A stretch of 64,000 bases of DNA from Ptychomitrium polyphyllum (GCA_973851085.1 OZ316775.1:22134001-22198000), one strand, 5' to 3'; positions 17,951 to 22,760 are shown, numbered from the stretch's first letter. The notes: a model not told the origin generated them from the letters alone. Translations and numbers: made by a program.

Positions 17951-20900
17951 ATGGCGGCCATGGAGTCGCTGCGTCTCACTCTCACTGCTTTTCCTGCTCT
18001 CGTCGCCTCTGCACGTACTTATATCGTTCCCTCCCCTTTGATCGCATGCATTGTGCAAGTTTTGAGTTGCGTTCTGCATTTGGGTTCACTTGATCCATCA
18101 CTAGCTTTGTTGGTTAATTTCGTACTCAGTTCAGAGAGTGTATTGCTTTGTTTTGGTAGTGGTGTCGTAAATTGTCTTTTCTTTCTGGTTGGGTTGGCAG
18201 CTCCCTCGAGAATTGATCGTCAGCTGCGGGAGATAGCCGCTGCTCTTGCTGCCCTACTTTCGCCAGAGGTATATGAGCTTGATTTCTTGAAATTTTGCTT
18301 ATAGCGACGTAGTTATCGGAGAATAGTGTAACTGGGTGGACATTGGTCTAGCCCCTTTGATGGTGGGGACGCAATTTTGTGATTGAGCGTTGGTGGGGTG
18401 TGGGGAATGACAAGGAGTCAGTACATTGAAAGAATCATTGTACGTGGGTTAACACAGGAGACAGATGCGATGCTGCCGGAGCAGCAGGCTGCGCAGGATA
18501 ATGCTGTGTATCTTTTGCTTGATACGTTTTGCCGAGCGCATGCAGAAGGTCTCTTCCCATTTCTTCATGCATATGTAGACATGATTTTCGCTTGTGGTCT
18601 CATTCTGATTGATTAGAAGAGTCGTTCAGTGAGTGTGTTCATTAATAAGCCATCCCCGTTTCTGTTCTCGCTGTAGCCATTAACCCTCAGATTATTTGAA
18701 GGTTGCTGAGTTGTTGATACCAGGCTGTCATTGCTTATTGCAGATCATATGTCAGACCATACGAAATTGGGATCCTGGCGCTTGCCGTATGTAGCGATGC
18801 TGCACAGCCATACTTCCCTGCATTTGCCCCTCATAAGGCAATTGGAAGAGTTACTGCACTCTTCTGGAGCTTCTCTGGGTCCTGTACAATGCTCTGCGCT
18901 CAGCACTTTCATGCTGTTCATGAGTCCCTGTCAAATTTTGCAAAGAGACGTTGCAGTAGGTGTGGGTCAAGTTGGTGATTCTTCAAAAGTTGCAAATCTT
19001 GATATGCAGATTGCTTCTCCTAGTTACGAAGAGAATGTGGATGATCAACCTCTTGAGATTGTCAAGTTGGAAAAGCAGCGTGGAAACTGTTATGTTAAAG
19101 TGTTGTTTACGTGGCATTGGGAGGCTTGCTTTAGAGCCCAGAGTGTGTCGCTTGACCGAAAGGAGCAAGAGTTCTCATACAAAGATGGACACACGGATAG
19201 CCAAGTTCAAGGTGAAACATCAGATGTTGGGGAGAAAAGGGAAGAGTTACTGAGAAGCCAGTTTTCGGAGAGTGCAGGAGCAGGCATTCACTGGATGAAT
19301 CATTTCTGTGACGCATTTCTCATGGACTGTAAGACGAACATCCTATGGGCTGCTCGCTTTATAGCAAGCTATTTTCGGAACGTGGCAGTTTACTGGGAGC
19401 ATATTCTTCTTAATAAGGACTGCAGAGAGTCTTGGCTCCTTTCTGACTCGGCACTTCAGCTCAAGAACATCTCCTTAGTCGGTCCCATCTTTGGTCTGTA
19501 CATGTCTTACAACTCGGTAAATTTTGTTGCAATTTGTCACCTTAGGTTTTCCTGCTTGCAATGAACAAGACGCCCTGCTTGCATCGTTGTCCATGTGAAA
19601 CCAGTTCTTATACAAGTTACTGGTAGGCTACTTCTTTGTCAGTGATTAACTTTGCACATCTTCTCTGAGAGGCTTTTGGGCTTGAAGATGCCTGGTCCAC
19701 TTTTGTGATCAGCTATGCTTAGTTTTGAGAGAGAGTCACTAATGAAGTTGCTGATATTTTTTGATGTGAGTACTTGTGCAGTGGCATTCCTCCCTCAAAA
19801 TATGGTGACGTTTCTCATCTGGCTTCACCAACGGCTAGACTTTGCGTTTCAGTTTGACCAATCACGGGAAACTGAAGGTTTGAAGAAAGCACGGGCCCTG
19901 TGTGAAACAGTACTAGCCAGCCCTTTGGGAGTTCTGTTGCGGTCTACCAAAGTATCGTTGTCTATGAGCAATTTTTTCAAACTGGAATTAAGATCGGACT
20001 GGAAGGAGTGGGTCTTGAGCAACAGTCGACACCTCTTTCTGCGATATGTTGTCTGGGGTTGTTCCTTCACTGGAGCGCACGATTATTTCAGCTGGGGTCT
20101 GTTGTGGAAAGACTATGGTGGCGACAGAACACGTGCTTGCATAGCATTAGCAGCAGTTTTTTTAACGAGTCAATGCAAACAAAATGTGGAGTCTCGATTT
20201 ATGGAAAGGCAGCTATTGGATACTCGAATCTGCCGAAATGACGACAATGACATGCCAAATAGTGCGTGGTCTGGAACAAAGAAGCAGTGCGTTCGTGCAG
20301 GTCCTCCTGACTTGCAAGATTTCCGCCACTTGCTACGGCTGAAGGAGTCCGAAGCAAGACCTGCTGAGGTGTATATTCTCCAGATAATCGGAGAGCTGTC
20401 ATCCAAGCTGGATCCACAATGCGGTCCTTGGTTATTGGAGGTGTTCTACATTCCAGGACACACTAGCACTCTTCTTTATGTTACAGAAGAACCTGTTTTT
20501 TATGCCGCCTGCCATTCTCAGCTTTAATTAAATTCAAGAGCACTGAAGAAGTTCACAAGCTGTGGCCGTGGTTTTAAGGGAATTGAAACTGAACTGGCTC
20601 CTTCTGTGTGGATGGGCTACCTGGAAAATATTTGTTTATCAACGACTTACTATTGGATGTCTTCTTTGGCAGGCGGCATTTGATTGTCTCAATAGCCAAG
20701 CTCAACTGGAGAATGCAATCTTCATGCATCGCGAAACTTGTGCTTATACATATAAGTGCAAGAGCAGGCATTACAATTCTTGGGTTTGCAGTGCTCATAG
20801 GCTGAAGAGTTGCATAGCTGCTGTACCGCCTTTGCATAGTATCTCATATGAAAGGTGAATGTCATAAATCTGTTGTGCATTTCATCCATATCATGATTTA

Positions 20901-22760
20901 GTTTCTTGGTCACATCTCACCACATGACTTCATAATCTTTAAGATAAAGTAGTTCCGAGTTAACTGAATTCTTTGTGTATGAACAATACGAACGATGTAT
21001 GAAGTAATGGAAGTTGATAAGCCCTTGCAGTTTTGTATTAAGGACCTATATCTCAAACTTCACTTGTTTTGCTGAAGATTGTACAAGATGGAGAAGGTAT
21101 TCATGTTCTGTTGGCTAGGAGATGGACCCTTTTCAATTGACTTTGCTAGCCAGCTTCTGTCATATTTCCACACATCGCAAGCGACTGATATGTTTCTGAA
21201 GGTACGTAAGCTTCTTTCAAATCTATGGTCGAAATTACCTGTTTATGCTCTCATCAAGGTGCGATAAGGCTGTTTGTGAACTATCTGGAGAAGGAATCCT
21301 TCTTTGTTGTCTTTCGCACTGCTTTGAGTTTTTTCATCAGTCCCCTACTTAGAATCATGAACATCTTTGTTTCCTTATTTCCAGTCAATTTTAACGTCCA
21401 GGGATATGTGTTCAGGCAGAGCACCGATGGGGCACTTTGTTACTGGCTACTTGGGTACGGTTTTTTAATGTTGTTGGAGCACCGATTTTGAATCTACACC
21501 ATATGGTTGGTGGCATAGACCTTGGATCGATCTTGTCACAGTTGCATACCACACAACAGTTCCTCACGTCTGACTCGTAAGTTTTTAATTTTCGAAATGC
21601 CTAGGGTATGTTTCTGGTTATTATCTAATGTTTTCCTTTCCTTGGGATTTTCTCTTAACAAATGATAGATTCCTCATGAACTTTCATGAACTTTATTAGA
21701 TAATGCTCCTATAATTTAAATTTTATCTTATCTAACTTGTTGTTGGATACGGCAGATGTTCTACTGAACTGCACTTAGGTTTAACTACTAACCGATGTCT
21801 CGTACTTCATTGGTTTGTATTTGCAGAATACATGACAGCCCGGACATAGCTGGGTTCAAAGTGGCAGCTATGGCTATGCCACAGCTTGCAGCTGTCACTC
21901 TGATAGAAACTTTGTTTATTGCTTACTCGTGCACAAATTTATCATTAAAAGAAGGTTTCTTGGCAATGCTTGCAAGAGATGCGTCTCAACAACAGTATGA
22001 AATATCACGCAGAGTTGAGGATGTTTTAAGAAGGATAATAGAAGAACCCGGGTTGCAGGGATTAAGTATTAGCAAGGACCACGTGACAGTTTCTGAAGAT
22101 GGTGCACGATCATTCCTGAAATCCCTCTTATTTAATCTTGCTGATTTGTCATCAATGGCAGCAATCTCTCGCCCTGACTTGATTATAAAAAAGTGGACGG
22201 CCTTTGAGTACAAACGGACGTGGGTGTCTCAGTACAAGTCCTCGCCGATTTCAAGAGAGTTGCATGGGAACAGAGTTTTTAATCGGGAGAGACCGAAACC
22301 ATCACTCTTATCGTTGGCATCTATAGAGTTAGAGTTTGATGAGCGAATCGGCAAACCACGGAGGAGCACTTGGGACATTCTCCTCGAGTGGATAATCTCT
22401 TTGATTATCCTGTATCCATATTCAATCAATCAGCTGCTTATCAATATGAAGCTGCCTGATGTTACTCGGAGTCACCATGAAGAGGCTTATGTCCAGGATC
22501 CAGGAATTATCGCTCCTGGTCCCAAAGCACTAACTTTAGTCCTAGTCGTTGCCGGTCTGCCTAGGGACACATTATTGTTTCTTGCACAGTCAATCTCTTC
22601 AAAATCAAGTTGGACCCTCCTCCTGTCACAGATGCGTGTAGGACTGGAAAGTGGATTCCGTGACTTGTTTCTTGTTGATGAGAAACTGATGGCTAATGAC
22701 CTTTTTGCAATCAAGGCAGAAATGGATCTTTACTTGCTTCAGTTGCAAGATATTGTATAG
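17951..22760 (+). CDS. ~1,006-aa helical protein resembling the C-terminal domain of FANCA (Fanconi anaemia group A). Exons 17951-18014, 18201-18268, 18458-18548, 18744-19481 (or 19493), 19782-20440, 20673-20854, 21078-21201, 21416-21576, 21827-22760.
   Basis: Nine GT-AG-bounded exons join in frame (3,021 nt). Collinear motifs AVYLLLDTFCR, GSWRLPYV, LEELLHSSGASL, VSLSMSNFFKLEL, YGGDRTRACIAL and MDLYLLQL resemble human FANCA as recalled from memory. The gene model is more certain than the FANCA assignment. Confidence 0.8.

What the first reader, a model, noticed from the sequence alone, without database searches (positions are those of the whole stretch)
17951..22760. Apparent FANCA homologue (Fanconi anaemia core complex) in a moss genome
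Seen in the sequence: an intact 9-exon ~1,006-aa gene. Compared with human FANCA recalled from memory, motifs match in order along the protein (moss vs human): AVYLLLDTFCR vs AVDLLLTSFCQ; GSWRLPYVAML vs GPWAALFVRTM; RQLEELLHSSGASL vs TRLCQLLRHQGPSL; FLPQNMVTFLIWLHQRL vs CLSPGLIKKFQFLMFRL; VSLSMSNFFKLEL vs VHLTYQDWLHLEL; YGGDRTRACIALAAVF vs CDGDLQAACTILVNAL; GDGPFSIDFASQL vs HGGALTQDITAHF; LSQLHTTQQFLT vs LQKLQEGRQFAS; KSSWTLL vs KISWLAL; MDLYLLQLQ vs VDMYLKLVQ. Established: FANCA forms the A-G-FAAP20 module of the vertebrate FA E3-ligase complex and is usually listed as absent from Arabidopsis, although FANCM, FANCD2/I, FANCL and FANCC-E-F are present in plants. Inference: mosses may keep an unrecognised FA core module, relevant to crosslink repair and possibly to their efficient homologous recombination.
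Basis: partly seen in the sequence, partly recalled or inferred. Interest (0 to 1): 0.92.

Follow-up and report, generated by a model that had tools for sequence, protein, structure and literature searches.

The report
Moss gene for FANCA's back half
This intact nine-exon moss gene encodes a protein that is likely the back half of FANCA, a human DNA-repair scaffold listed as missing from Arabidopsis; it lacks FANCA's front 630 or so residues, so it would be a half-length or split form whose repair role is still untested.

Summary
The gene is real: nine exons, all introns GT-AG, 1,010 aa, 76-77% identical to Ceratodon and 64% to Physcomitrium proteins. Its first ~150 residues match Pfam FANCA_arcN (best homologue E 2e-11, 44 bits, cut-off 27.2), and no other Pfam family scored E below 0.01. 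By eye, 15 helical blocks line up to residue ~810 (about 70 of 255 identical). The extra moss sequence falls where mosses themselves vary in length. The N-terminal ~630 residues (NLS, main FANCG site) are absent, and a divergent katanin gene leaves no room for them. Two AlphaFold models failed, profile searches did not reach FANCA in the PDB, and no relative clearly outside mosses was found. So homology past residue 150 rests on a hand comparison. UniRef already auto-labels the moss orthologues 'FANCA arcN domain-containing'; my ten literature searches turned up no paper describing them. Verdict: a likely C-terminal-only FANCA variant. An intact moss FA core module is not shown.

The parts
17951..18014 (+). 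exon 1 (ATG; aa 1-21; helix H3A-like)
   Evidence: in-frame stop two codons upstream of the ATG; same N-terminus in P0001, P0006, P0045
18201..18268 (+). exon 2 (aa 22-44; H3B-like)
18458..18548 (+). exon 3 (aa 45-74; H4A-like)
18744..19493 (+). exon 4 (aa 75-324; H4B-H5B-like, a moss insertion, then H6-like)
   Evidence: Pfam PF24783 E 4.2e-6 on this frame
17960..18961 (+). coding span of aa 4-147, the stretch whose homologues match FANCA_arcN profile positions 3-159 of 235
   Evidence: (P0006 4-147 vs 3-159; P0045 4-138 vs 3-150), mapped to the window
18923..19285 (+). variable insertion of ~100 aa relative to FANCA (within aa 135-255)
   Evidence: 11.7 gap columns per 100 among moss homologues; pLDDT mostly 20-30
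19478..19525 (+). cluster of competing intron-4 donors; those after 19477 and 19516 shift the frame and stop early in exon 5
   Evidence: matching spliced products in P0009-P0011, P0014, P0015, P0017 and P0043
19782..20440 (+). exon 5 (aa 325-544; HM1A to H9A-like, with a U-loop-position insertion)
   Evidence: by-eye register
20673..20854 (+). exon 6 (aa 545-604), with a moss-conserved His/Cys cluster at 20727-20798 (aa 563-586)
21078..21201 (+). exon 7 (aa 605-646; H10-like)
21416..21576 (+). exon 8 (aa 647-699; HM2-like)
21827..22760 (+). exon 9 (aa 700-1010 and stop; H11A, H12A-like, then a region without clear register)
16964..17950 (.). 987-bp interval between the divergent katanin ATG (16963, - strand) and this gene's ATG; too short to encode FANCA's N-terminal ~630 aa
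   Evidence: longest stop-free run on + is 115 codons

Best explanation
The window holds an intact, moss-conserved nine-exon gene whose protein is likely a divergent FANCA reduced to its C-terminal arc domain, predicted to fold as a HEAT-repeat solenoid and likely to act as a dimeric scaffold in DNA repair. Shown: the gene, its conservation, the profile match of its first ~150 residues, and the absence of an N-terminal domain at this locus. Inferred from a hand comparison: homology continues through helix H12A (moss aa ~810). Inferred from the vertebrate structure and not tested: it pairs head-to-tail through the convex face and offers its C-terminal repeats to a FANCG-like TPR partner, helping to bring the FANCL ligase with FANCC-E-F to stalled forks. 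The N-terminal domain's jobs (nuclear import, main FANCG contact) would be supplied in trans or dropped. My odds: FANCA-derived 0.9; lacks the N-terminal domain in this polypeptide 0.95; still works with an FA-core-like ligase about 0.5.
For: (1) Pfam FANCA_arcN is the only family with E below 0.01 for any of the 26 members of alignment A5, and 11 of 26 match it. In one search, 11 of 17 queries match and 6 pass the curated cut-off (30.4-44.4 bits). Five of the 6 non-matching queries lack the N-terminal stretch and the sixth is a 30-aa exon. (2) The match starts at protein residue 4 against profile position 3 and runs almost 1:1 to 147/159. Vertebrate arcN begins at Xenopus 632. (3) Against the six-vertebrate alignment in Fig S3 of PMC7102982, 15 blocks from H3A to H12A line up in order with the numbered model. 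Hand count: about 70 of 255 positions identical to human. This includes an ungapped 32-residue run (moss 373-404 / human 916-947) and G-D-x4-C (moss 438-444 / human 975-981), invariant in all six vertebrates and in the window plus all six homologues covering it. (4) The offset jumps by about 100, 40 and 45 residues at moss 135-255, 453-520 and 731-793. These segments have 5.4-11.7 gap columns per 100 among mosses, against 0-1.8 in the matched segments. (5) Both low-confidence models are mostly helical. (6) Precedent: plant FANCC was found only by remote-homology search at 16% identity (PMC10085685), and FANCA is reported in Mucoromycotina and Glomeromycotina (PMC11061109).
Against: No tool result supports homology beyond residue ~150. 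None of the other FANCA Pfam families (Fanconi_A PF03511 is named; others recalled) scored. phmmer and three moss profiles plus one N-terminal profile did not reach FANCA in PDB sequences at E up to 10. The ESM Atlas returned generic helical solenoids and showed no FANCA row. phmmer of P0001 over 1.84 billion representatives gave 16 hits, all 44-85% identical, with no bridge to FANCA. The window's own exon-4 frame scores 27.0 bits, under the cut-off. The blocks were chosen by hand, so 27% is not a statistic. In that register several functional residues are not kept: R880 and I939 (FAAP20 contact) and R1055. The dimer leucines 1069/1076 cannot be placed, and R951 is kept in only 3 of 6 homologues plus the window. 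PMC7102982 states that the N-terminal domain with FANCG is needed for strand annealing and exchange, so a C-terminal-only protein may not do this alone.
Confidence: 0.75

Rival explanations
1. Split FANCA: mosses encode the N-terminal domain as a separate gene elsewhere, and the two halves reassemble into a complete FANCA within a full A-G module. This is a special case of the best explanation, not an alternative to homology.
For: In the Xenopus structure the N-terminal part docks on the concave face of the C-terminal dimer and is joined by a disordered loop just before H3A (PMC7102982), which is where the moss protein starts.
Against: No FANCA N-terminal family hit in 29 other frames of the window. 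No moss genome could be searched. No FANCG is listed for Arabidopsis.
Confidence: 0.35
2. It is FANCA-derived but has left the FA core complex: an orphan C-terminal domain acting as a stand-alone DNA-binding or annealing dimer, or repurposed altogether.
For: It lacks the NLS and main FANCG site. FAAP20-contact residues are not kept. It has gained a moss-specific His/Cys cluster and three insertions. No relative was found that is clearly outside mosses. [quoted passage not shown] The protein is not basic overall (pI 6.2).
Against: FANCA also binds FANCG through its C-terminal repeats, so a partner site could remain. FANCI is DNA-damage-induced 15-fold in Physcomitrium (PMC4990234), so the downstream substrate exists in mosses.
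Confidence: 0.3
3. It is an unrelated moss-specific helical-repeat protein, and the arcN hit and motif matches are convergent amphipathic-helix patterns.
For: Fold and profile searches of the PDB were negative or uninformative. The Atlas's nearest clusters are Nckap1, Gemin4, Urb2, Epg5 and FANCC at 0.86-0.91. No intermediate sequences were found.
Against: E 2e-11 against 24,736 families with no competing solenoid family. The match begins at the first residues of both protein and domain. Ordered non-hydrophobic matches lie in blocks the profile hit did not cover.
Confidence: 0.1
4. The gene entered the moss lineage sideways, for example from a Mucoromycota fungus, rather than by descent from the first plants.
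For: The distribution looks narrow. FANCA is reported in Mucoromycotina and Glomeromycotina. A Mucoromycota-derived gene in bryophytes has been reported (PMC7181705, search listing only).
Against: No fungal hit appeared. FANCC-E-F and FANCL are in plants by descent, and FA core genes diverge fast enough to escape single-sequence search. An unchecked note reports full-length FANCA in a picozoan-like protist.
Confidence: 0.1

Closest known systems
Vertebrate FANCA C-terminal domain (Xenopus arcN 632-900 and arcC 901-1403, PMC7102982; human FA core complex PDB 7KZP; Pfam PF24783)
   Same: Profile match over arcN positions 3-159; helix order H3A-H12A by eye; mostly helical; about the length of the arc plus three insertions.
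   Different: No N-terminal domain, NLS or helical subdomain (~630 aa). Insertions of about 100, 40 and 45 aa. A moss-specific His/Cys cluster. FAAP20-contact residues not kept. Last ~170 aa without clear register. About 27% identity only in the best blocks.
Ceratodon KAG0559083.1 / UniRef A0A8T0GJ97 and Physcomitrium LOC112292175 (A0A7I4AW40, A0A2K1JCS9)
   Same: Orthologues: 76-77% and 64% identity over the full length, same N-terminus; the exon junctions of the window model are crossed without a break.
   Different: Named 'hypothetical' or 'uncharacterized' at NCBI and 'FANCA arcN subdomain domain-containing protein' in UniRef. No functional study was found.
Arabidopsis FANCC-FANCE-FANCF (Singh et al. 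2023, PMC10085685)
   Same: An FA core subunit hidden in plants by low sequence identity.
   Different: That case was proven by HHpred, AlphaFold, pull-down and genetics, and FANCC is found in most plants. The moss gene has only sequence evidence and was not found outside moss-like sequences.
Fungal FANCA of Mucoromycotina and Glomeromycotina (Barua et al. 2024, PMC11061109)
   Same: FANCA outside animals, in lineages reported to lack FANCG.
   Different: Opisthokont. Its domain span was not examined here.

Membership tests
FANCA | arcN subdomain (Pfam PF24783) above the curated cut-off | tested here: met
   P0001 34.9, P0002 28.1; P0043 44.4, P0045 36.9, P0003 35.0, P0010 31.9, P0034 30.9, P0006 30.4 bits against 27.2. 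The window's exon-4 frame alone scores 27.0; the spliced window protein was not scanned.
FANCA | N-terminal domain with bipartite NLS and main FANCG-binding site, plus helical subdomain (about residues 1-630) | tested here: not met
   The protein starts at arcN position 3. There is an in-frame stop two codons upstream and a katanin ATG 988 bp away on the other strand. Whether a separate gene supplies it is untested.
FANCA | arcC subdomain (H7-H14), including the Fanconi_A region | tested here: inconclusive
   No Pfam or PDB-profile hit. By-eye collinearity to H12A; no register for H13-H14.
FANCA | Arc-shaped HEAT solenoid fold matching 6LHS/7KZP | tested here: inconclusive
   Models at mean pLDDT 32.9 and 38.5; fold searches returned only generic helical hits.
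FANCA | Reciprocal best hit or profile-profile match with vertebrate FANCA | not testable with these tools
   No FANCA sequence was obtained as a stored protein. Forward searches did not reach it.
FANCA | Head-to-tail homodimer through the C-terminal domain | not tested
   The complex predictor was not available.
FANCA | Binds FANCG and FAAP20; needed in vivo for FANCD2 monoubiquitination and crosslink resistance | not testable with these tools
   Needs experiments and a moss proteome; no genome held.

The most novel reading that the evidence does not exclude
Mosses keep a FANCA that is naturally cut at the hinge between its halves. The C-terminal arc is this gene, and the N-terminal half is a separate, still unannotated gene or has been dispensed with. 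An A-G-type module would then date back to the common ancestor of plants and animals, and the two halves of FANCA would be separable functional units.
Probability: 0.45. Interest if true: 0.8.

Novelty: new variant of a known kind. Interest (0 to 1): 0.6.

Why it matters
Reviews treat most FA core subunits as late, animal additions (PMC4657327), and FANCA is listed as absent from Arabidopsis (PMC4132730). A FANCA-derived gene in mosses would extend the FANCC-E-F result to the A-G module and push FANCA back to early eukaryotes, or reveal a transfer. Most patient point mutations fall in the C-terminal domain (PMC7102982). A natural C-terminal-only form in Physcomitrium, where knockouts are easy, makes it directly testable what that domain does without the N-terminal half.

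Full report
Observation. The region holds one open nine-exon chain from ATG 17951 to the stop at 22760, with eight GT-AG introns of 186-288 nt, encoding 1,010 aa. Each junction is crossed by 7 to 14 of the 54 stored homologues. These include unnamed Logan proteins that run through the junctions without intron sequence, which I infer come from transcripts. Two DNA runs match the stretch letter for letter, though they may be its source; no RNA run of this organism was listed.

Profile evidence. Pfam FANCA_arcN (PF24783) hits the window's exon-4 frame at E 4.2e-6, 27.0 bits against a cut-off of 27.2 (1 of 7 frames scanned). Ceratodon P0001 scores 34.9 bits and Physcomitrium P0002 28.1. Of 26 members of alignment A5, 11 match, best E 2.1e-11, and the next family reaches only E 0.014. 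In one search, 11 of 17 queries match and 6 pass the cut-off. In P0006, P0010 and P0045 the match starts at residue 4 against profile position 3 and runs to 138-147 against 150-159. Scores of 30-44 bits suggest the mosses are not in the profile's seed (inference). No other FANCA family scored on any part. UniRef already names three moss entries 'Fanconi anaemia group A protein arcN subdomain domain-containing protein', so the automatic label exists.

Checking the recalled motifs. Figure S3 of Jeong et al. 2020 (PMC7102982; supplement parts 1-2 of 3) prints FANCA of six vertebrates from about residue 500 to the end. I counted residue numbers from the row starts and checked them against positions named in the paper (I939, R951, L1069, L1076, W1174, W1302, M1360). 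Comparing by eye with the numbered moss model, blocks line up with helices H3A, H3B, H4A, H4B, H5, HM1A, HM1C-H7A, H7B, H8A, H9A, H9B, H10B, HM2, H11A and H12A. Human-minus-moss offsets are 643, 647, 658, 659, 657, 532, 543, 544, 537, 506, 490, 503, 511, 505 and 461. About 70 of 255 positions are identical to human. The blocks were picked by hand, so this is a description, not a test.

An independent check on the register. The three large offset drops need moss insertions at about 135-255, 453-520 and 731-793. These are the segments where moss homologues differ in length among themselves: 11.7, 7.1 and 5.4 gap columns per 100, against 0-1.8 in the matched segments (I set the segment borders). 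Past residue ~835 the register is ambiguous.

What is missing. In Xenopus FANCA the helical subdomain spans 530-619, arcN 632-900 and arcC 901-1403 (section 14). The moss protein begins at the first helix of arcN. There is an in-frame stop two codons before the ATG, and a katanin p60 gene starts 988 bp upstream on the other strand. Ceratodon, Physcomitrium and the unnamed P0045 start at the same place. So about 630 residues are not part of this polypeptide, including the bipartite NLS and the main FANCG site (passages). None of 29 other frames in the window hit a FANCA family. Because a defining part is absent, I file it as a C-terminal-only variant and not as a canonical FANCA.

Results against, or uninformative. 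phmmer of P0001 over 1.84 billion representatives found 16 proteins at E 0.001 or better, all 44-85% identical, with no distant tail. Word-indexed searches gave 2 of 1,528, 3 of 7,993 and 11 of 7,995 candidates, all 44% or more identical. The only named organisms are two mosses; the unnamed records carry no taxon. Neither single-sequence nor profile searches reached FANCA among PDB sequences. Both AlphaFold runs failed, so the fold searches say nothing. The Atlas showed only generic solenoids. In the by-eye register the FAAP20-contact residues R880 and I939 and the buried R1055 are not kept.

How it most likely works. From the vertebrate structure (passages), the arc dimerises head-to-tail, has a basic groove proposed to bind ssDNA, and binds FANCG through its last HEAT repeats. 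The N-terminal domain docks in the concave face. I infer that the moss protein keeps the arc fold and probably the dimer, and most likely serves genome maintenance with an FA-type ligase, the N-terminal functions being supplied in trans or lost. FANCL, FANCE, FANCD2 and FANCI are listed for Arabidopsis (Table 1 of PMC4132730; Table 1 of PMC6747210), FANCC-E-F was shown there (passages of PMC10085685), and FANCI is damage-induced in Physcomitrium (passages of PMC4990234). None of this is shown for the gene itself.

Literature. I ran ten searches. FANCA+Marchantia+Fanconi gave 0 papers, and the Foldseek/plant query gave 0. FANCA+Physcomitr+Fanconi gave 7; I read passages of 2 of them (PMC6747210; PMC4402529), which name FANCA only as a human subunit, and saw the other 5 as listings. 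No listing or passage describes a bryophyte FANCA. Girard 2014 marks FANCA absent from Arabidopsis, and Singh 2023 says no other core components appear to exist there. Barua 2024 (abstract, passages, section 11, part 1 of section 13 and five supplement passages) reports FANCA in two early-diverging fungal groups. Dong 2015 (passages) treats most core subunits as later animal additions. The library lacks most subscription papers.

Verdict. The gene is real and FANCA-derived with about 0.9 probability. The support is a solid profile hit on the first 150 residues and a hand-checked collinear match over most of the rest. Databases have labelled it automatically, but I found no description of it, and its C-terminal-only architecture is the new point. 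An intact moss FA core module remains a hypothesis. Interest 0.6; new variant of a known kind.

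Noticed in passing
window 19478-19525 (intron 4 donor region): Frame-shifting alternative donors look conserved. Six Physcomitrium-cluster Logan proteins use a donor equivalent to 19477 and P0043 one equivalent to 19516; both stop early in exon 5, leaving a 327-340-aa arcN-only product or an NMD target. P0009 was seen on 72 contigs against 91 for the in-frame P0008. 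The read-through of the first intron codons is also alike across many homologues.
   Followed up: partly
window 20727-20798 (aa 563-586): An H-x3-C-x5-C-x9-C-x2-H/Y cluster is present in the window and in 7 of 7 homologues checked, with no counterpart seen in the vertebrate alignment; a possible zinc site.
   Followed up: partly
window about 20270-20300 (aa 487-497): A short Trp/Lys-containing motif is nearly invariant inside the otherwise variable U-loop-position insertion; a possible linear motif or substitute NLS.
   Followed up: no
window 12659-16963 (-): Katanin p60 gene (MIT, AAA lid and Vps4_C hits), head-to-head with the FANCA-like gene, 988 bp between start codons; a shared promoter is likely.
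   Followed up: partly
window 23793-24896 (-): Intron-free metallophosphoesterase gene, tail-to-tail; best PDB match 2nxf, E 1.4e-59, recalled as the Mn-dependent ADP-ribose/CDP-alcohol diphosphatase. Pfam gave no hit.
   Followed up: partly
window 2571-3164 (+): Chlorophyll a/b-binding protein frame, E 2e-39.
   Followed up: no
window about 11280-11560 (+): Stretch that reads by eye like a decayed leucine-rich-repeat fragment.
   Followed up: no
window 35724-36044 (+), 31794-32657 (+), 44692-46104 (-): A weak protein-kinase hit (E 1e-4) and two long frames (287 and 470 aa) with no Pfam match.
   Followed up: no
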